From Pseudomonadales bacterium (GTDB taxonomy: Bacteria; Pseudomonadota; Gammaproteobacteria; Pseudomonadales; JAHEIH01), in assembly GCA_035458985.1 (NCBI GenBank), contig DATHYR010000041.1, forward strand, positions 16,910-80,909: 64,000 bases of DNA. Reading direction: 5' to 3'. A program made the translations under genes and the position numbers. The notes under the pieces are model-generated. The model did not search any database, was not told the DNA's origin, and saw only the letters and a program-made list of their open reading frames with translations. Shown one piece after another: positions 46,404 to 53,744 of this stretch; the first letter of the stretch is position 1; each line of letters starts with the position of its first letter.

Positions 46404-47065
46404 TCGAGGGGTTTGTCGCCGCTGTGTTGATGGGTTTGGCAGGCAGTGGCCATTGCATGGGTATGTGTGGCGGTATCGCCGCTGCCCTGGGACAACAACA
46501 ATCCAACGCGCTTCGCATCACGCTATTTAACTTAAGCCGAATATCTAGCTATGCCATCATCGCGGCGTTGGTGGGCTCAAGTATTGCTATTCTTGGTCCC
46601 GATTTCAAAATGTTGATGCCTATCTTACGCTTAATGGCGGGCTTGCTGCTCATAGCCATGGGGCTGTATCTGTTAGATTGGTGGCGTGGCATTCAATTCC
46701 TTGAGCGTGGTGGTGCCGTTTTATGGCGTAGCTTACAACCCATAAGCCGACGCTTGATGGGGCGTAGAACACTTCCTAGCACGGTCGCTCTTGGCTTGCT
46801 TTGGGGATTTTTACCCTGTGGTCTTGTCTATTCCGCCCTCAGCTGGTCAATCGCTTACAGTGGAGATACAAACGCCGCTTGGCTCATGCTGGGCTTTGGG
46901 GTCGGCACTCTTCCTTCGATGTTAGCCACCAGTTTCACTGGCGCGTGGCTACAAAAGCTATTTCGTCAACGTACGACACGATCCATTGTGGCGGTCAGTA
47001 TGATGATATTTGGTCTTTGGACGGCCGCCATGCCGATCATGAAAATGCTCACTGCGTTGCACTAA
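46400..47065 (+). CDS. TauE/SafE- or DsbD_2-like membrane protein associated with ccoS
   Basis: 221 aa, six TM. GSGHCMGMCGGI motif at the N-terminus and LPCGLVY later. Conserved position after ccoS. Confidence 0.7.
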   Translation: MIEGFVAAVLMGLAGSGHCMGMCGGIAAALGQQQSNALRITLFNLSRISSYAIIAALVGSSIAILGPDFKMLMPILRLMAGLLLIAMGLYLLDWWRGIQFLERGGAVLWRSLQPISRRLMGRRTLPSTVALGLLWGFLPCGLVYSALSWSIAYSGDTNAAWLMLGFGVGTLPSMLATSFTGAWLQKLFRQRTTRSIVAVSMMIFGLWTAAMPIMKMLTALH

Positions 47066-49076
47066 TGTCAATGATTCTATCTGCTGCGGCTAGACAATCT
47101 GGTCGATGTGCCACCATCAGTATCGTTAACCCAAGCGCTGGCTCGCGCAGCGCTTGCATGAGTCTTTTCTCCGCCAACACATCCAAATGACTGGTCGCCT
47201 CATCGAGCAATAACACGGCGGGTTGTCGATAGAGTGCTCGTGCAATTTGCACACGCTGTGCTTGTCCTGCACTCAAGCCATGACCGTATTCGCCGACCGG
47301 GGTATCAAGCCCCATCGGTAAATCTGCCAACACGCGATCAACACCGGACACAATGCACACGTGACGTAATCGTTGCCCATCGGGAGAGGGATCGAAGTGA
47401 CAAATATTGTCTTGTATACTGCCGCTCAACAAGCCATCGCCCTGCAGTACCGCGGCTACTTGCTCGCGCTGACACCCCCAACGGATAGATGCTGTATGTG
47501 TTTCCAACCCCAGTAGGGCTCGCATTAAGGTCGATTTTCCACATCCACTGCGTCCCGCAATGGCGACACACTCTCCCGGTTCTAAGGTAAGACGAAGGTG
47601 ACGGCCTTCCACCCTCAATATCTCCGGTTGGATATAGGCAAAAAGATGATTGTCCGGCTGCCGCTCGGTCATGGCGATATCTGCTAAACGATCTCGATGA
47701 ACAGGTAACAAACGAAGTGTTAGTAAGGCCGATACAAGGCCTTGGCTAGCACTGGCAAATCGCCCTTTGTAAGCTAGAAAAGCGAATAACATGCCGATGG
47801 TCATGTGCTGTTGCATCACCATATGGGCCGCCCAGTACACCAAGACAATGTGCTCAAGACCTTGTAAGGCACGTAAGGTCGTGTCTAATCTCACTTGCCA
47901 AAACTTAGCGTTGACATCAGCGCCATTGAAGTCGTGTAATTTGTCACACCACTGATCGCTTCGATCCTGACGAGCACCCATTTGCGCGATGGTTTGAACC
48001 ATGGCAATACTCTCTATGAAATGGCCATCAAGGGTCGCCCGCGATTGAACTGCCTGCTGCTGAGCACGCTTAATCCATCCACTACTCAACCACACGACAA
48101 GGACATACATCACCGTACTTGCCAACACGATACCACTCAACAATGGGCTATATAGCCACATGGCAAACAAGGCGGCTAGGGCCAAGATTCCATCCACAAT
48201 ACTCACCGCGAGTTGCTGACTGAATAGCTCTCGAAAATAATCAATGGCATTAAAACGAGACTGGATGTCACCGATGTGTCGCGCCGCAAAGAATCTTAGG
48301 GGTAGTGTCATTAAATGGCGAAATAATCGCTCACCAAGCTGTCGTTGCAACGCGGCAGAGAAACGCAATACCACGGCATCCCGAAGGTATTGTAGGGTTG
48401 TTTGAAACACCAATAACCAGGTAAACCCAAACGCCAAACTCCCCAGTAAAGCACCATCCAAGCGAAGCACGACATCGTCGACGACGGTTTGAACATACAG
48501 CGGCGAAAGCAACAAACAGGCCTGTAAAACGACAGATAGCAGCGCAACGGTCACCACCTGGCTGGCTACCGAAGCACTGTATAGCAATGGTCGCAAGGCA
48601 AATATCGGGAGGGGCTGACATGGCGCTGTGGCCTTGCCTCGTTGTAATAGCATCGCCACACCGGTGAAATGCCGGGCCATTTCGTTACTCGATAACCACC
48701 GTTCACCTCGTGCGGGATCGTGGATGAGATGCCTACCAAAACGGCGCCTCACATAGACCACGAAATGATTGAAATCCCAGTGCAACACCATTGGTGAGGT
48801 TTGCACCGCCAAATCAGTCAACGATAGGCTATACACTTGCCCTTCTAGCCCATAACTATGGGCAATTGCTCGCAACTGTTTCACTGTATTACCACGTCCT
48901 GCATTACCAAAACGTTCACGCAATTGTTTTAAACTAACGCCGACCCCGTGGTAATCAAAGCACATAGCTAAACACGCCAAACCACACTCGGCGGCTTCGG
49001 CTTGCCAAATCATGGGGATTTTTCGTCCGACGTTAAGCCGCCACCAGGGGCGTGTGTAAACTAGGGTTCCTTCCAT
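47049..49076 (-). CDS. peptidase-C39-domain ABC exporter (PCAT, CvaB-like bacteriocin/microcin transporter)
   Basis: 675 aa. N-terminal C39 motifs QAEAAECGLACLAMC (catalytic Cys), HWDFNHFVV (His) and HDP. Six-TM domain. NBD with GRSGCGKST, LSAGQAQRVQIARAL, LLLDEATSHLD, MVAHR. GAGAGGTG RBS. Confidence 0.88.
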   Translation of the reverse strand: MEGTLVYTRPWWRLNVGRKIPMIWQAEAAECGLACLAMCFDYHGVGVSLKQLRERFGNAGRGNTVKQLRAIAHSYGLEGQVYSLSLTDLAVQTSPMVLHWDFNHFVVYVRRRFGRHLIHDPARGERWLSSNEMARHFTGVAMLLQRGKATAPCQPLPIFALRPLLYSASVASQVVTVALLSVVLQACLLLSPLYVQTVVDDVVLRLDGALLGSLAFGFTWLLVFQTTLQYLRDAVVLRFSAALQRQLGERLFRHLMTLPLRFFAARHIGDIQSRFNAIDYFRELFSQQLAVSIVDGILALAALFAMWLYSPLLSGIVLASTVMYVLVVWLSSGWIKRAQQQAVQSRATLDGHFIESIAMVQTIAQMGARQDRSDQWCDKLHDFNGADVNAKFWQVRLDTTLRALQGLEHIVLVYWAAHMVMQQHMTIGMLFAFLAYKGRFASASQGLVSALLTLRLLPVHRDRLADIAMTERQPDNHLFAYIQPEILRVEGRHLRLTLEPGECVAIAGRSGCGKSTLMRALLGLETHTASIRWGCQREQVAAVLQGDGLLSGSIQDNICHFDPSPDGQRLRHVCIVSGVDRVLADLPMGLDTPVGEYGHGLSAGQAQRVQIARALYRQPAVLLLDEATSHLDVLAEKRLMQALREPALGLTILMVAHRPDCLAAADRIIDISATQ

Positions 49077-49094
49077 GGAACACCTCTCATTGTG

Positions 49095-49364
49095 TTAGAG
49101 GGTTTTCAAGAGCAAACCTGTGACAAAAAGCACACCGGCAATACCATGCAGCGAATTCACTAGCGTGGACTTGACCTGGACCTTGCCAAGCTTGGCACTG
49201 ATAAATCGAACATTGTCAGGCAAGGGGAACAGAATCATAATAATCCCTAACGCCCACAAGACGTCTCCCCATGCCTGTTGCTGAATGTGTAACATAGCAT
49301 TGGCCATGGCTAAACAAAGCAAGATTATCAGCATGGCCATTAGGCCATTTTTCTTCATATCCAT
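49095..49364 (-). CDS. small three-helix membrane protein, candidate immunity protein
   Basis: MDMKKNGLMAMLIILLCLAMANAML...ALGIIMILFPL...GIAGVLFVTGLLL. Located between the peptide gene and the PCAT gene. Start chosen at the second ATG (AAAGG 9 nt upstream); the track start is 49373. Confidence 0.5.
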   Translation of the reverse strand: MDMKKNGLMAMLIILLCLAMANAMLHIQQQAWGDVLWALGIIMILFPLPDNVRFISAKLGKVQVKSTLVNSLHGIAGVLFVTGLLLKTL

Positions 49365-49404
49365 AACTGTCATCCTTTCACTGTGGTCATCCCTGAAGAT
49401 TAAA

Positions 49405-49427
49405 TGTGGCCCGCTGGGCGAGCCACA
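49405..49427 (-). terminator. stem-loop (possible partial terminator/attenuator) just after the peptide gene
   Basis: Minus-strand RNA UGUGGCUCG-CCCAG-CGGGCCACA forms a 9-bp stem with one G-U pair, followed by UUUAAUCUU. It begins 10 nt after the peptide stop codon. Confidence 0.45.
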
Positions 49428-49436
49428 CGCGGCGAC

Positions 49437-49640
49437 TTAATACTCGTTAAATAAGTCGTAGACCTCGCTTCCCAGCCAATTTCCTAATGTGTTAGCACCG
49501 TAAAAATTGGCCGTTTCATAAGACTGCTTATAGGTCACACCAATAGTCGCAATGAGGCCAAGCGCTTGCACCCAGCCTCCGGCTACGTGATCTAGCATGT
49601 CATCTTCAAGTGTTAGTAAGTCAGTATTGTAATCATCCAT
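49437..49640 (-). CDS. double-glycine leader peptide precursor (class II microcin/bacteriocin-like)
   Basis: MDDYNTDLLTLEDDMLDHVAGG|WVQALGLIATIGVTYKQSYETANFYGANTLGNWLGSEVYDLFNEY. Leader has L-15, L-12, L-7, V-4, G-2, G-1. AGAGGA lies 8 nt before the ATG at 49640; the track start at 49649 has no usable spacing. Adjacent to PCAT and HlyD genes. Confidence 0.75.
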   Translation of the reverse strand: MDDYNTDLLTLEDDMLDHVAGGWVQALGLIATIGVTYKQSYETANFYGANTLGNWLGSEVYDLFNEY

Positions 49641-49737
49641 GATTAACATCCTCTGTTGTGATGCCGCTACAGGATTGCAGCGACACTCTTAGTATTAGCC
49701 AGATGATTGACAGTCACCACTGCACCGACAGCCAGAA

Positions 49738-49941
49738 TTAGCTGAAAAATGTCAGTAAGCCCTGCCGATTATTGATGTTTAATTTGCGATATATATTGGA
49801 GCAATGAAATTTCACCGTTCGCTCCTCGATATGCAGATTTCTGGCAATCACTTTATTTGGTCGCCCCAATAGGAGTTCGCCAAATACCTGTGACTCACGT
49901 GGTGATAACAAACGACTTAGTTCTGATATTACATCTCTCAT
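49738..49941 (-). CDS. LuxR/GerE-type HTH-only transcriptional regulator (67 aa)
   Basis: LSPRESQVFGELLLGRPNKVIARNLHIEERTVKFHCSNIYRKLNINNR is the LuxR C-terminal DNA-binding domain. There is no receiver or ligand-binding domain. AAGGAG RBS. Confidence 0.8.
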   Translation of the reverse strand: MRDVISELSRLLSPRESQVFGELLLGRPNKVIARNLHIEERTVKFHCSNIYRKLNINNRQGLLTFFS

Positions 49942-49963
49942 AGCTGATCTCCTTATCTAGCTA

Positions 49964-51199
49964 TTAACGCGTGAAACCTCCACGCAACGAATAGAGCGGC
50001 TCAAATAGCCACTCCGCAAAAGACCGACGACTCAACACAACGTCGGCCTCAAAACTCATCCCTGTTTTGAGTTGATAGCGTTTACCATGCGCCAATACCG
50101 AGGTTTCCTCCAAGGCGACTTTGGCGGTATAGACAAATTCTCCATGCGTATCGGCATTTGGTGTATCGTTGAGTTGCTCGATGATGCCATGATGCACCCC
50201 GTACTTTTGGTAGGGGTAAGCACTATATCTTAGCTCGACGGGTTGACCTTCACTGACAAAACCCGCCGCCTGCACTGGGATATGCATTACGCCAATAAGA
50301 CGCGCATTATGCGGAAGAATGTTAAGCAAGGCTTGACCTGGACGCACTTCATCGCCAACGTGAATGGCAATGCTGTCAACGACTCCGGACTGCGCTGCCA
50401 CAATGGCATGATACCCCTTCCCTTGAAGATCAATCATTTGCTGGGAAAAACCATGAGATGCCGCCTCATGTCGGCTCTTGTTGAGCGCTTGTTCGGTCGC
50501 CAAACTCGCCAGTTGTTGTTCTAGGGAGACATGTAGGCTTTGCTGATCGGCGAATTCGCCCTCCAGACTGAGCATTTGCAATCGCAGATGATGAATTTTT
50601 TCCTGCATATCAAGCAGTGAGGCGGCGGCCACATGTCCCTGCTCAAAAAGAATCTTAGCCCTATCATATTGCTGATTGGCCATCTGCAAAATTAATTCAC
50701 GATCATGCTTAGCTGTTTCAAATAACGCTAACTTTCGGGAAGAACCCGCCAACTGTGAAACGAGCCTCTGTTGTTTTTGGTCATCAAGCTCTGCTTGGCG
50801 AACTTGCTGTTCTAATAATGTCTGCTGCTGCTGATCCAGTACGCCTCGCTGAGCATCGAACACTGACAGCCCATTAGACATAAAATGAAGCGGACTCACG
50901 AGCATTAATACATCACCGGCCTCGACCGTCTGACCGATATTAACAAGCTGCTCAACGATTCGACCTTGCACTGGCGAACGATGTGTTTGTACACCGGCGG
51001 CGGGTTCTACCCAGCCAATGACCGTTTGATAGCGCACGAAGTGCTGAGTTATCAACCAGCCTGTCGCCACCATAGATAACACCATCATGACGACCATCAC
51101 CCACAGATAGTTGGTTTGTAATGGCGTATAGAATGGCCTTACACGGCCCTGGGCGGCATACAATACGGCATCCTGCCGAAAAATAGGTAACGCTTTCAT
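49964..51199 (-). CDS. HlyD/CvaA family membrane fusion protein
   Basis: N-terminal FRQDAV motif as in bacteriocin MFPs, one TM helix, a long Gln/Leu-rich coiled-coil and a C-terminal beta-barrel domain. 411 aa. Confidence 0.85.
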   Translation of the reverse strand: MKALPIFRQDAVLYAAQGRVRPFYTPLQTNYLWVMVVMMVLSMVATGWLITQHFVRYQTVIGWVEPAAGVQTHRSPVQGRIVEQLVNIGQTVEAGDVLMLVSPLHFMSNGLSVFDAQRGVLDQQQQTLLEQQVRQAELDDQKQQRLVSQLAGSSRKLALFETAKHDRELILQMANQQYDRAKILFEQGHVAAASLLDMQEKIHHLRLQMLSLEGEFADQQSLHVSLEQQLASLATEQALNKSRHEAASHGFSQQMIDLQGKGYHAIVAAQSGVVDSIAIHVGDEVRPGQALLNILPHNARLIGVMHIPVQAAGFVSEGQPVELRYSAYPYQKYGVHHGIIEQLNDTPNADTHGEFVYTAKVALEETSVLAHGKRYQLKTGMSFEADVVLSRRSFAEWLFEPLYSLRGGFTR

Positions 51200-51304
51200 A
51201 GCATCCTTGCTGTCGTTAACGGATATAACTCGGTTTAGAAATTGTAGTTAACATTAGGAAAGTTTTTATACGTTTCTGTTACAAGCGACCCTGGCCATAT
51301 AACC

Positions 51305-52217: not shown

Positions 52218-52246
52218 TTGACGCTCCCTGCCCCAACCTCTATTAT
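52218..52246 (+). promoter_or_regulatory. sigma70-type promoter for tRNA-Ala
   Basis: TTGACG, a 17-nt spacer, then TATTAT, followed by a GC-rich discriminator (TCGCACC). About 38 nt upstream of the tRNA 5' end. Confidence 0.6.
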
Positions 52247-52283
52247 TCGCACCACTTTCGAGGCACACTCGAATCCCAAATTT

Positions 52284-52359
52284 GGGGCCTTAGCTCAGCT
52301 GGGAGAGCGCAACACTGGCAGTGTTGAGGTCAGCGGTTCGATCCCGCTAGGCTCCACCA
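52284..52359 (+). tRNA. tRNA-Ala (anticodon GGC)
   Basis: Cloverleaf folded by hand: acceptor GGGGCCT/AGGCTCC with the G3:U70 Ala identity pair, D-arm GCTC/GAGC, anticodon stem CAACA/TGTTG with loop CTGGCAG, T-arm AGCGG-TTCGATC-CCGCT, and an encoded CCA. Confidence 0.93.
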
Positions 52360-52368
52360 AAAATAAAA

Positions 52369-52395
52369 GATCACCTTCGGGTGGTCTTTTTTTTT
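52369..52395 (+). terminator. Rho-independent terminator 1 after tRNA-Ala
   Basis: GATCACC-TTCG-GGTGGTC followed by nine T. Confidence 0.75.
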
Positions 52396-52443
52396 GCGTG
52401 GCAAAGCCGGCGTGGAGAGAACCGCTGAAAGCGAGTTCAATGA

Positions 52444-52470
52444 AGACCACCTCCTGGTGGTCTTTTTTTT
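52444..52470 (+). terminator. Rho-independent terminator 2 (duplicate)
   Basis: AGACCACC-TCCT-GGTGGTCT followed by eight T. Confidence 0.7.
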
Positions 52471-52550
52471 GCGTGGCAAAGCCGGCGTGTAAAGTTATGG
52501 GAGTCGTCTGCTGGCAGACGGCGATAGCGCTTGTCTATTTCACATGCGAG

Positions 52551-53744
52551 ATGCTACAAAGACATCCTTCCAATATGTGCGATCTCATCATGATAAAAAA
52601 CACCCTAACACTCTACCCCGCTGCGCAAGCCCTTGGCGCCTCAGCGGCGCCCATCGTGATCTCTCTGGCGGGACTGGTGAGTATTTCGCTCGGAGCGCAC
52701 AAGGACATCGCCACACTGCCCATCTTTTTACTGAACGCAGGGATGGCCGTTTCCACCTTGATCGCGGCCTATTCCATCAAAACCTTAGGGCGAAAAACCG
52801 CCTACATCATCGCCGCCACGGTGGCGCTTCTCGGTGCAGGCTTACAAACAGCGGCGCTTCTACACACCTCATTTTTATTGTTTTGCATTGGCACTACTAT
52901 GCTAGGTTTTAACGCGGCGCATATTCAGACCTACCGCTTTGCTGTCATGGAGGGACAACCCACGCACGATCATGGCAAAGCTATTTCTAGGGTCATGCTC
53001 GGTGGTCTAGTAGCCGCCATTATCGGGCCACAGATTGTCGTATGGGGAGGAACGTTAGCAAGCGGACAATTCATCGCTAGCTTTGGTGGTATTGGTGTTT
53101 TGCTGGTCTTGCAAATCCTCATCCTCAGTGGACTGCCTCGTTCGCCAGCACAGTCTCGGCAACAGCATCAGCAACCCAAGGTATCCATCTGGACCCTGTT
53201 ATCTCGACCGACCTACGTTACGGCCATGCTCGCGGGCGTGGTGTCCTATGCGTTAATGGCCTTTGTGATGACCGCTGCCCCCATTGCCATGGTGTCGCAT
53301 GGGCATCCTGTGAGCGATGCTGCGCTTGGCATTCAATGGCACGTGCTGGCGATGTATGCGCCCAGTTTTTTCACAGGCAAACTGATTGAGCGCTTTGGCA
53401 AAGCCACCATTACCGCGATCGGCTTACTTTTCATTGCACTTTCCGGGGGTCTAGCCCTCATGGGGTTAGACTTAATGCATTTCTGGGGTACGTTGATACT
53501 CTTAGGTCTTGGTTGGAATTTTGGCTTTACCGGCGCCACGGCCTTAATCGCCACCTCAGTCAGCGACGAAGAGAAAAGTGTCGCACAGGGCCTGAATGAC
53601 TTTATGATCTTCACGACCATGGCCATTGGGTCACTCATGGCTGGCTTCATGTTTAATTCCATTGGCTGGCAAATGCTGAATCTAGTGGTCTTTCCCGGCG
53701 TAGCCATAGCCCTGGCTATGATGCTCCTCCACCGCGCGAAATAA
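52551..53744 (+). CDS. MFS transporter
   Basis: About 12 TM helices. The track ORF (52218-) runs through the tRNA and terminators, so the start was moved to the first downstream ATG (52551; 52575 and 52590 are also possible). Confidence 0.78.
   Translation: MLQRHPSNMCDLIMIKNTLTLYPAAQALGASAAPIVISLAGLVSISLGAHKDIATLPIFLLNAGMAVSTLIAAYSIKTLGRKTAYIIAATVALLGAGLQTAALLHTSFLLFCIGTTMLGFNAAHIQTYRFAVMEGQPTHDHGKAISRVMLGGLVAAIIGPQIVVWGGTLASGQFIASFGGIGVLLVLQILILSGLPRSPAQSRQQHQQPKVSIWTLLSRPTYVTAMLAGVVSYALMAFVMTAAPIAMVSHGHPVSDAALGIQWHVLAMYAPSFFTGKLIERFGKATITAIGLLFIALSGGLALMGLDLMHFWGTLILLGLGWNFGFTGATALIATSVSDEEKSVAQGLNDFMIFTTMAIGSLMAGFMFNSIGWQMLNLVVFPGVAIALAMMLLHRAK

What the first reader, a model, noticed from the sequence alone, without database searches (positions are those of the whole stretch)
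47049..51199. Complete double-glycine peptide secretion locus (class II microcin-like) with unrecognised cargo
Five co-directional minus-strand genes are separated by only 18-88 nt. In order they are:
- an HlyD/CvaA-type fusion protein;
- a 67-aa LuxR-HTH-only protein;
- a 67-aa peptide with a canonical GG leader;
- an ~89-aa three-helix membrane protein;
- a 675-aa ABC exporter.

The exporter has an N-terminal C39 peptidase domain that keeps the Cys (ECGLAC), His (NHFVV) and Asp (HDP) contexts, and its NBD motifs are intact.

This is the full parts list of a Gram-negative class II microcin system (precursor, immunity, PCAT, MFP, with TolC in trans). I cannot match the cargo to MccV/L/N/H47/E492-type peptides. 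The gene order (MFP first, regulator in the middle, PCAT last) differs from the classic cvaAB/cvi-cvaC layout. The host does not look enterobacterial.

The locus sits between the conserved ccoGHIS-tauE operon and an alpha/beta hydrolase plus tRNA-Ala. That position is consistent with an accessory insertion.
Basis: partly seen in the sequence, partly recalled or inferred. Interest (0 to 1): 0.85.

Follow-up and report, generated by a model that had tools for sequence, protein, structure and literature searches.

The report
Microcin-like peptide export locus, new cargo family
This is a real five-gene locus that very probably cuts and exports a small bacteriocin-like peptide from an uncultured gammaproteobacterium. 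The system type is well known, but the peptide, its membrane partner and its tiny regulator belong to rare undescribed families, and the locus is inherited vertically rather than recently inserted.

Summary
Five co-directional minus-strand genes at 47049-51199 encode:
- an HlyD-type adaptor;
- a 67-aa GerE/LuxR helix-turn-helix-only (HTH-only) protein;
- a 67-aa double-glycine (GG) precursor;
- an 89-aa three-helix membrane protein;
- a 675-aa peptidase-containing ABC exporter (PCAT) with Cys31/His104/Asp120 and intact ATPase motifs.

This matches the published parts list of a class II microcin system. TolC was not found in the locus, and activity is untested.

The cargo is not a known microcin. 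It belongs to a rare family of about 35 clusters among 5.8 billion proteins. The family core motif is T[YF]KxAYETAx[FW][FY]GA..LGxWLG..xYD, and no Pfam or NCBIfam model covers it.

Relatives of the peptide sit next to a homologous ~90-aa membrane protein. They often lie in multi-peptide loci with CPBP/Abi genes, MFP and PCAT. This supports a bacteriocin plus immunity reading.

The "accessory insertion" idea is not supported. The locus lies at the same site (hydrolase | locus | DsbD_2-ccoS) in at least six lineages, synonymous sites are saturated, and there are no mobility marks.

Two unusual points stand out. The HTH-only regulator is far more conserved than its housekeeping neighbours. Its rare relatives elsewhere also sit beside MFP-PCAT genes and GG peptides.

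Verdict: a new member of a known kind, of moderate interest.

The parts
49964..51199 (-). Membrane-fusion (periplasmic adaptor) protein, 411 aa, HlyD/CvaA type
   Evidence: Pfam HlyD_3 5.2e-18, HlyD_D23 6.3e-11. TIGR01843 type_I_hlyD 6.9e-35, below its equivalog cut-off. 60-79% identical in syntenic relatives.
49738..49941 (-). 67-aa GerE/LuxR-type HTH-only transcription factor, with no receiver or ligand domain
   Evidence: Pfam GerE 4.8e-19 covering residues 11-64. 91-99% identical across lineages, dN 0.006-0.065. Rare subfamily of 9 hits. Distant members also sit next to MFP-PCAT genes and GG peptides.
49641..49737 (-). GerE-peptide spacer with conserved blocks; a candidate activator-dependent promoter for the peptide gene, with RBS GAGGA 8 nt before the ATG
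   Evidence: Five-lineage alignment shows invariant blocks (TCGGT.CAGTGG; ATACTAA; GAGGA) separated by variable sequence. The promoter role is inferred.
49437..49640 (-). 67-aa precursor: 22-aa double-glycine leader (49575-49640) plus 45-aa core (49440-49574; 5081.6 Da, pI 4.05, no Cys)
   Evidence: Leader ...LLTLEDDMLDHVAGG|W has hydrophobic residues at -4, -7, -12 and -15. The family alignment keeps the GG site and the core motif YETA.F.GA..LG.WLG..YD. Physicochemical values.
49404..49428 (-). GC-rich stem-loop 8-11 nt after the peptide stop codon; a leaky-terminator or mRNA-stabiliser candidate
   Evidence: Terminator-like scan hit. A stem of 7-14 bp (-16 to -21 kcal/mol for the hairpin itself) lies at the same place in all six lineages with different sequences, and 3 pairs show compensatory changes. 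The function is inferred.
49095..49364 (-). 89-aa protein with three hydrophobic segments: candidate immunity protein
   Evidence: Hydropathy peaks at about residues 7-25, 31-50 and 67-87. No Pfam or NCBIfam family. Homologous to the ~90-95-aa proteins immediately downstream of family peptides in L093, L095 and L097 (hhalign 95.8%, E 7.7e-9). Fastest-evolving gene of the locus (dN 0.29-0.56).
47049..49076 (-). Peptidase-containing ABC transporter (PCAT), 675 aa
   Evidence: Peptidase_C39 2.5e-31, ABC_membrane 7.8e-29, ABC_tran 1.1e-23. Closest solved structures are HlyB 1e-63 and PCAT1 3e-59. Cys31/His104/Asp120 are present, as are Walker A, Q-loop, signature, Walker B and H-loop. About 35% identical to plasmid PCATs.
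51200..51304 (.). Divergent hydrolase/MFP intergenic region; candidate shared promoter/operator
   Evidence: Nearly invariant in five lineages although synonymous sites in the flanking genes are saturated. The role is inferred.

Best explanation
The locus is a chromosomal, vertically inherited class II microcin-like system.

Step 1, shown at sequence level. The 67-aa precursor carries a 22-aa double-glycine leader. The PCAT has a complete C39 catalytic triad and a complete ATPase motif set. An HlyD-type adaptor is encoded in the same operon.

Step 2, inferred from the PCAT1 and CvaAB-TolC paradigms. The leader docks in the C39 domain and is cut after Gly22. The 45-aa acidic, aromatic-rich, Cys-free core (5.08 kDa) is pumped through the PCAT-MFP-outer-membrane-channel conduit. 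The TolC-like channel is encoded elsewhere.

Step 3, inferred. Outside the cell the core acts on the envelope of related bacteria. It has a hydrophobic N-terminal stretch followed by the conserved motif YETANFYGA..LG.WLG.EVYD. The co-inherited 89-aa three-helix membrane protein protects the producer.

Step 4, inferred. The 67-aa GerE-only protein controls transcription through the conserved hydrolase-MFP and GerE-peptide spacers. A conserved hairpin after the peptide gene sets the ratio between peptide mRNA and downstream immunity/PCAT mRNA.
For: - Domains and catalytic residues. The triad positions Cys31/His104/Asp120 match CvaB Cys32/His105/Asp121, the positions used as the screening criterion in PMC9746304.
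- The locus matches the five-component definition of class II microcin systems in PMC9746304, and the immunity criteria (adjacent, small, transmembrane helices) in PMC12219008.
- The peptide family keeps the GG site and one core motif across about 35 clusters.
- Family members occur in loci typical of bacteriocins. These include several different GG peptides sharing one leader, CPBP/Rce1-like genes, MFP and PCAT (L092, L095, L097), and an orphan peptide+partner pair beside mazEF (L093).
- The ~90-aa membrane partner is homologous across these contexts.
- The peptide and its partner are the fastest-evolving genes of the locus, while all ORFs stay intact over saturated dS.
- Weak hits to Bacteriocin_IIc and TIGR03949 come from the leader and proximal core.
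- A hairpin after the structural gene is conserved by structure, not by sequence.
Against: - There is no experimental evidence of cleavage, export or killing.
- No TolC-like gene was found in the locus, and the rest of the window was only partly checked.
- The locus is fixed at one chromosomal site in every lineage seen, which is unlike the patchy distribution usual for bacteriocins.
- The core is acidic and resembles no validated microcin. Against MccV, hhalign aligns the leader only.
- The AlphaFold model has low confidence (pLDDT 60), so no fold evidence is available.
- The PCAT nucleotide-binding domain is about 24 residues shorter than that of HlyB.
Confidence: 0.7

Rival explanations
1. 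The exported peptide is a signal or kin-recognition cue rather than a toxin. The clade-wide peptide would be sensed at the envelope, possibly through the co-evolving 89-aa membrane protein, and the output would run through the ultra-conserved HTH-only regulator.
For: The locus is fixed at one site in all lineages seen (at least six), with saturated dS. This fits a core trait better than a weapon. The regulator is under extreme purifying selection (dN 0.006-0.065). It also accompanies PCAT loci with unrelated cargo elsewhere. The peptide and membrane protein co-diversify, as pheromone/receptor pairs do.
Against: There is no kinase, receiver or ligand-binding domain anywhere in the locus. The 89-aa protein has no soluble domain to transmit a signal. 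Homologous peptide+partner pairs occur without any regulator, in multi-bacteriocin loci with CPBP/Abi genes and beside a toxin-antitoxin pair.
Confidence: 0.12
2. The peptide is a RiPP precursor that is modified by enzymes encoded elsewhere before export.
For: The leader gives a weak sub-threshold hit to the XyeA triceptide model (21.1 bits against a cut-off of 33). The core is rich in aromatic residues (2 W, 5 Y, 2 F). A related GerE-PCAT locus (L103) has a short Pro-rich GG peptide followed by a 317-aa ORF.
Against: No modifying enzyme lies in or next to the locus in any of the syntenic lineages. The XyeA hit covers only leader residues 10-28. The core has no Cys, Ser or Thr clusters. In the other loci carrying family members, no modification enzyme was called next to the peptide.
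Confidence: 0.05
3. The locus is a recently acquired accessory island inserted between the cco operon and the hydrolase/tRNA-Ala.
For: It is absent beside DsbD_2 in the next families out (about 36-47% DsbD_2 identity). A relative of the system sits on an integrase-bearing island in Alteromonas-type contigs.
Against: Same site and same order in at least six lineages, down to 46% peptide identity and 59% DsbD_2 identity. pS is 0.66-0.89 for the locus genes, the same as for the flanking genes. G+C is like the flanks. No flanking direct repeats or integrase were found. The PCAT and DsbD_2 genes overlap at their 3' ends.
Confidence: 0.05

Closest known systems
Microcin V (colicin V) system of E. 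coli: cvaA-cvaB / cvaC-cvi plus TolC
   Same: GG-leader precursor, PCAT with a Cys/His/Asp triad at equivalent positions (31/104/120 here against 32/105/121 in CvaB), HlyD-type MFP, an adjacent small membrane immunity gene, and no modification enzymes.
   Different: - The core is unrelated; hhalign aligns only the 17 leader columns.
- The core has no Cys, so no disulfide, and is 45 aa against 88 aa.
- The PCAT is only about 35% identical to enterobacterial plasmid PCATs.
- It is a single operon in the order MFP-regulator-peptide-immunity-PCAT instead of two divergent operons.
- It has a dedicated GerE-only regulator.
- It is chromosomal and syntenic across a clade rather than plasmid-borne.
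Moraxella catarrhalis mcbABCI bacteriocin locus (PMC2761928)
   Same: A non-enterobacterial gammaproteobacterial locus, transcribed as one unit, with the MFP gene first, a PCAT, a very short GG bacteriocin gene and a very short downstream immunity gene with no database relatives. It is chromosomal in several strains.
   Different: The order is A(MFP)-B(PCAT)-C-I, whereas here the PCAT is last. The abstract read describes no regulator gene in that four-gene cluster. That locus is strain-variable or plasmid-borne. Its cargo was not compared here, because the sequence was not at hand.
Gram-positive class II (blp/pln-type) multi-bacteriocin loci with CPBP/Abi immunity genes; NCBIfam TIGR03949 lactobin A/cerein 7B family
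   Same: Relatives of the window peptide sit in loci with several GG peptides sharing one leader, small membrane proteins and CPBP/Rce1-like genes. 18 of 35 family members touch TIGR03949.
   Different: TIGR03949 matches only the leader and the first ~20 core residues, not the family motif. The window peptide itself does not match at E<=1. The window locus has a single peptide, no CPBP gene, an MFP for a two-membrane envelope, and no HK/RR pheromone circuit.

Membership tests
Class II microcin system (five components as listed in PMC9746304) | Precursor under 10 kDa with an N-terminal signal ending in GG or GA | tested here: met
   22-aa leader ending VAGG|W. The GG site is conserved in the family alignment. 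The core is 5.08 kDa.
Class II microcin system (five components as listed in PMC9746304) | C39 peptidase-containing ABC transporter with the catalytic Cys/His/Asp | tested here: met
   Peptidase_C39 108.7 bits against a cut-off of 22. Cys31, His104 and Asp120 are present. Cys is present where HlyB has Tyr.
Class II microcin system (five components as listed in PMC9746304) | Membrane fusion protein encoded with the PCAT | tested here: met
   HlyD_3 66.2 bits against a cut-off of 22.2, and HlyD_D23 42.4 against 30.
Class II microcin system (five components as listed in PMC9746304) | Adjacent small inner-membrane immunity protein | tested here: inconclusive
   Position, size (89 aa) and three hydrophobic segments fit. 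The partner gene is conserved next to family peptides elsewhere. Protection itself cannot be tested here.
Class II microcin system (five components as listed in PMC9746304) | TolC-type outer-membrane channel | not tested
   None in the locus. Ten other large ORFs of the window were scanned and none is an outer-membrane factor. The rest of the genome is not available.
Class II microcin system (five components as listed in PMC9746304) | Antibacterial activity of the mature peptide | not testable with these tools
   Needs secretion and inhibition assays.
Class IIa / IIb microcin subclasses | IIa: disulfide bond(s) in the core. IIb: Ser-rich C-terminus carrying a siderophore, with mch/mce modification genes. 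| tested here: not met
   The core has no Cys, its C-terminus is ...DLFNEY, and the locus has no modification genes.
MccV family (Pfam PF17508) | Core homologous to CvaC | tested here: not met
   The window peptide gives no hit at E<=1. Three relatives score 16.7-18.8 bits against a cut-off of 27. hhalign of the family against a verified CvaC sequence aligns only the leader.
TIGR03949 class IIb bacteriocin, lactobin A/cerein 7B family | Score above the curated cut-off (21.5 bits) over the model | tested here: not met
   The window peptide gives no match at E<=1. Two of the six relatives scanned individually reach the cut-off (P0018 29 bits, P0035 21.8 bits), through the leader plus the first ~20 core residues only.
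NHLP/Nif11 bacteriocin export system (TIGR03796/03794) | Equivalog-level PCAT and HlyD scores, with an NHLP or Nif11 precursor | tested here: not met
   PCAT scores 364 bits against a cut-off of 853. MFP scores 41.5 against 156. The precursor has no NHLP or Nif11 domain.
HlyB-type RTX type I secretion | C39-like domain lacking the catalytic Cys; substrate with a C-terminal signal | tested here: not met
   The Cys is retained (ECGL against DYGL in HlyB). The cargo has an N-terminal GG leader.
XyeA triceptide RiPP (TIGR04495) | Score above the cut-off of 33 bits; adjacent radical SAM maturase | tested here: not met
   21.1 bits, covering leader residues only. No radical SAM gene is in the locus.

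The most novel reading that the evidence does not exclude
The locus may not be a weapon. It could be a clade-wide, vertically inherited peptide communication or kin-recognition system of a Gram-negative lineage. The exported 45-mer, its fast co-evolving 89-aa membrane partner and the almost invariant 67-aa HTH-only protein would form a minimal peptide-sensing circuit. The same HTH-only subfamily would then be a dedicated controller of PCAT loci with varied cargo.
Probability: 0.12. Interest if true: 0.7.

Novelty: new member of a known kind. Interest (0 to 1): 0.36.

Why it matters
Class II microcins are now thought to be widespread but have been tested almost only in Enterobacteriaceae. This locus adds three things:
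- A defined, alignable cargo family with a recognisable motif.
- A cognate partner family that can be detected by homology, which is unusual for immunity proteins.
- A small HTH-only regulator that recurs in PCAT loci.

All three come from uncultured marine-type Gammaproteobacteria. They could be turned into search profiles. The 45-mer has no Cys and no modification genes nearby, so it would be easy to synthesise or to secrete heterologously. The fixed chromosomal position across a clade also makes this a convenient case for asking whether such peptides serve competition or communication.

Tried and rejected
- MccV-like core. Weak Pfam MccV hits in three relatives suggested homology to the N-terminal half of CvaC. 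hhalign of the 35-sequence family against CvaC aligned only the 17 leader columns, so this was rejected. My recalled CvaC sequence was first verified as 100% identical to annotated cvaC.
- Structure route. The AlphaFold2 model of the precursor, built with the family alignment, gave pLDDT 60.5 and pTM 0.26 and was essentially one long helix. I judged it too poor for a fold search, so none was run.
- Mobile-element signatures. No direct or inverted repeats bracket the locus, there is no G+C shift, and Rfam finds nothing except the tRNA.
- Second family copy or other GG-leader ORFs in the window. A family HMM over the six-frame ORFs found only the known gene. My first regex scan was too strict to recover even the true peptide and gave only false hits.
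- Sigma-70 consensus scan. It gave no convincing promoter on the minus strand upstream of the MFP or the peptide, and the counts were below shuffle expectation. The promoter assignments therefore rest on conservation only.
- JGI metagenome scan with the peptide motifs. It gave only one extra locus, L091.
- Literature searches. I found no paper describing this peptide motif or a GerE-only regulator of PCAT loci. The library does not cover the whole literature.

Full report
**1. What is in the sequence**

Five minus-strand ORFs fill 47049-51199.
- Pfam assigns the 411-aa product to HlyD_3 and HlyD_D23, and the 67-aa product to GerE (residues 11-64 of 67, so it is HTH only).
- It assigns the 675-aa product to Peptidase_C39 + ABC_membrane + ABC_tran. 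All scores are far above the curated cut-offs.
- The two small ORFs in between match no Pfam or NCBIfam family.

Comparison with relatives fixes the true starts.
- The peptide begins at MDD (49640), 8 nt after a conserved GAGGA. The upstream ATG is absent in other lineages.
- The membrane protein begins at MDMKK (49364), giving 89 aa.
- The gaps between genes are 22, 97, 72 and 18 nt.

The PCAT keeps QAEAAEC31GLAC, NH104FVV and IHD120P, plus Walker A, Q-loop, signature, Walker B and H-loop. Published microcin pipelines use these triad positions as a filter (CvaB Cys32/His105/Asp121; PMC9746304).

Against solved structures the PCAT is closest to HlyB (1e-63) and PCAT1 (3e-59). It carries Cys where HlyB's inactive C39-like domain has Tyr. 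Its nucleotide-binding domain is about 24 residues shorter than that of HlyB.

**2. Whose genome, and is it an insertion?**

A scan of one genome per species with the flanking DsbD_2 protein gave only three close relatives.
- Two MAGs labelled Cellvibrionales and Pseudomonadales have 81-82% DsbD_2 identity.
- One short contig has 59% identity.
- Everything else is at or below 47%.

The two MAGs carry the same five genes between the same neighbours. The 59% contig shows the PCAT convergent on DsbD_2 before it ends.

Exact-protein look-ups added further lineages with identical synteny: L001-L006, L007-L010, L098/L099 and L107.

In Agarilytica, Oceanicoccus, Spongiibacter, Simiduia, Luminiphilus, BD1-7 and the other loci retrieved, nothing homologous lies within 10 kb of DsbD_2. 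The only exception is an unrelated ABC ATPase in Vibrio.

Synonymous differences are saturated for locus and flank genes alike (pS 0.66-0.89). Every ORF is intact. G+C is like the flanks. No repeats bracket the locus. The PCAT and DsbD_2 genes overlap at their 3' ends.

The locus is therefore an old, vertically inherited feature of this small uncultured clade, not a recent accessory insertion.

**3. The cargo**

A word-indexed search of 5.8 billion proteins found only two relatives of the peptide. A full HMMER pass over 1.84 billion representatives found ten real ones. A profile search found 35 clusters.

All of them share two features:
- a GG (rarely GA/AG) leader;
- a core of about 40-45 aa with a short hydrophobic stretch followed by T[YF]KxAYETAx[FW][FY]GA..LGx[WY][LI]G..xYD.

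The window core is WVQALGLIATIGVTYKQSYETANFYGANTLGNWLGSEVYDLFNEY. It is 5081.6 Da with pI 4.05 and contains no Cys.

No curated model covers the motif. TIGR03949 (lactobin A/cerein 7B) touches 18 of 35 members, but only across the leader and the first ~20 core residues. The window peptide does not match it. That model explains why one Shewanella member is annotated as a "class IIb bacteriocin".

A hint of MccV similarity did not survive a profile comparison with a verified CvaC sequence.

**4. Context of relatives**

Family peptides occur in four kinds of setting.
- a. The syntenic clade above.
- b. Loci ordered MFP - peptide(s) - ~90-aa protein - CPBP/Rce1-like protein - PCAT (L095, L096, L097). 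A Shewanella gaetbuli locus has MFP-PCAT followed by three different GG peptides sharing one leader, two 86-aa proteins and a CPBP gene.
- c. An orphan peptide + 95-aa pair beside mazEF and a Fic gene.
- d. An integrase-bearing island seen in more than 200 contigs and annotated in Alteromonas. It carries a longer Gly/Ala-rich peptide ending GSWLGGEIYDWFNS, a small membrane ORF, and MFP-PCAT-GerE-only genes.

The ~90-aa proteins of (b) and (c) are homologous to the window's 89-aa protein (hhalign 95.8%, E 7.7e-9). Peptide and membrane partner therefore travel as a pair.

Multi-peptide loci, CPBP/Abi genes and a paired small membrane protein are the usual company of class II bacteriocins (established knowledge). 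They also match the published working criteria for microcin immunity genes (PMC12219008; PMC9746304).

Within the clade, the peptide (dN 0.13-0.44) and its partner (dN 0.29-0.56) evolve fastest.

**5. The regulator and cis elements**

The GerE-only protein is 91-99% identical across lineages in which DsbD_2 is 81-82% identical. Its dN is 0.006-0.065 against 0.13-0.15 for DsbD_2, with saturated dS. This is protein-level constraint, not recent transfer.

Its subfamily (motif ERTVKFHCSNIYRKLN) is rare, with nine hits. The two distant members whose contexts I looked up (58-61% identity) lie directly after MFP-PCAT and before GG peptides with unrelated short cores. The Alteromonas-type island has one too. 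This small HTH protein is therefore a recurrent, dedicated companion of PCAT loci.

Three non-coding features are conserved.
- The 105-bp hydrolase/MFP spacer is almost invariant in five lineages.
- The GerE-peptide spacer contains conserved blocks.
- A stable stem-loop lies 8-11 nt after the peptide stop codon in all six lineages, with different sequences and compensatory pairs.

I read these as promoter/operator regions and a leaky terminator or stabiliser. That reading is inference. The consensus promoter scan was uninformative.

**6. Mechanism proposed**

Shown: the parts and their catalytic and ATPase motifs.

Inferred from the PCAT1 and CvaAB-TolC paradigms:
- The leader docks through hydrophobic residues at -4, -7, -12 and -15.
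- It is cleaved after Gly22.
- ATP-driven export follows through PCAT-MFP and an outer-membrane channel encoded elsewhere.

Inferred from context: the mature peptide is a membrane-directed bacteriocin, and the 89-aa protein gives the producer immunity.

My confidence is about 0.9 for "GG-peptide processing and export locus" and about 0.7 for "bacteriocin plus immunity".

**7. Rivals**

- Signalling or kin recognition (0.12). Fixation of the locus in the clade and the ultra-conserved regulator favour it. The lack of any sensor domain, and the regulator-less homologous pairs in bacteriocin-type loci, speak against it.
- RiPP precursor (0.05). The only support is a leader-level XyeA hit below its cut-off, and no maturase is nearby.
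- Recent island (0.05). This is contradicted by the synteny and the saturated dS.

**8. Comparison, novelty and score**

The system works like MccV (CvaAB/CvaC/Cvi) and like Moraxella McbABCI (PMC2761928). It meets the architectural definition of a class II microcin system.

It fits neither subclass IIa nor IIb, and its cargo, partner and regulator families are undescribed.

Class II microcin-type loci are now reported as abundant and sequence-diverse across bacteria (PMC12219008). Another such locus is therefore not surprising in kind. I rate it a new member of a known kind.

The three features that raise it above routine are the alignable cargo+partner family, the recurrent HTH-only regulator, and the clade-wide fixed position. 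Interest: 0.36.

Noticed in passing
window 52367-52494: Two tandem copies, 75-76 nt apart, of a GC hairpin followed by T8. They lie immediately 3' of tRNA-Ala(GGC) at 52284-52359 and look like a duplicated terminator (D1/D2/I1).
   Followed up: no
window 51200-51304: The divergent hydrolase/MFP intergenic region is almost invariant in five lineages whose coding synonymous sites are saturated. The 43 nt next to the hydrolase start are identical, or differ at a single base, in five of the six lineages aligned. Rfam finds nothing there.
   Followed up: partly
window 47049-47700 (PCAT nucleotide-binding domain): The NBD is about 24 residues shorter than in HlyB, with gaps before Walker A and between Walker A and the Q-loop. 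PCATs of the GerE-bearing window clade and of the Alteromonas-type island L101 are 675-689 aa. Those in the other loci looked up, including GerE-bearing L103/L105, are 718-725 aa.
   Followed up: partly
L103 3825-5289: MFP-PCAT-GerE-only genes are followed by a 53-aa GG-leader peptide with a short Pro-rich core and then a 317-aa ORF with no Pfam hit on record. This may be a modified-peptide variant of the same regulator/exporter module.
   Followed up: no
L106 899-4089: At least six short GG-leader ORFs (35-54 aa, cores of about 20 aa) lie downstream of a GerE-only gene of the same subfamily.
   Followed up: no
L100 / L101 / L102 / L091: This is an integrase-bearing island, with peptide P0038 seen in more than 200 contigs and annotated in Alteromonas alba. 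It carries an 89-aa Gly/Ala-rich GG peptide with the family C-terminal motif, two Pol-beta-type nucleotidyltransferase-like genes, a GerE-only gene and MFP-PCAT. In L100, L102 and L091 the PCAT is truncated next to IS66-type transposase genes. It is intact in L101.
   Followed up: partly
L093 7674-9240: An orphan family peptide (58 aa, GA cleavage motif) and its 95-aa partner lie beside mazE/pemK and a Fic-domain gene in a Pseudohongiellaceae MAG. No PCAT is present within 8 kb.
   Followed up: no
window 52218-53744: The 508-aa ORF listed here runs across the tRNA-Ala gene. Relatives have a 384-aa MFS-type gene at the corresponding place, so the real start is probably much further downstream.
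   Followed up: no
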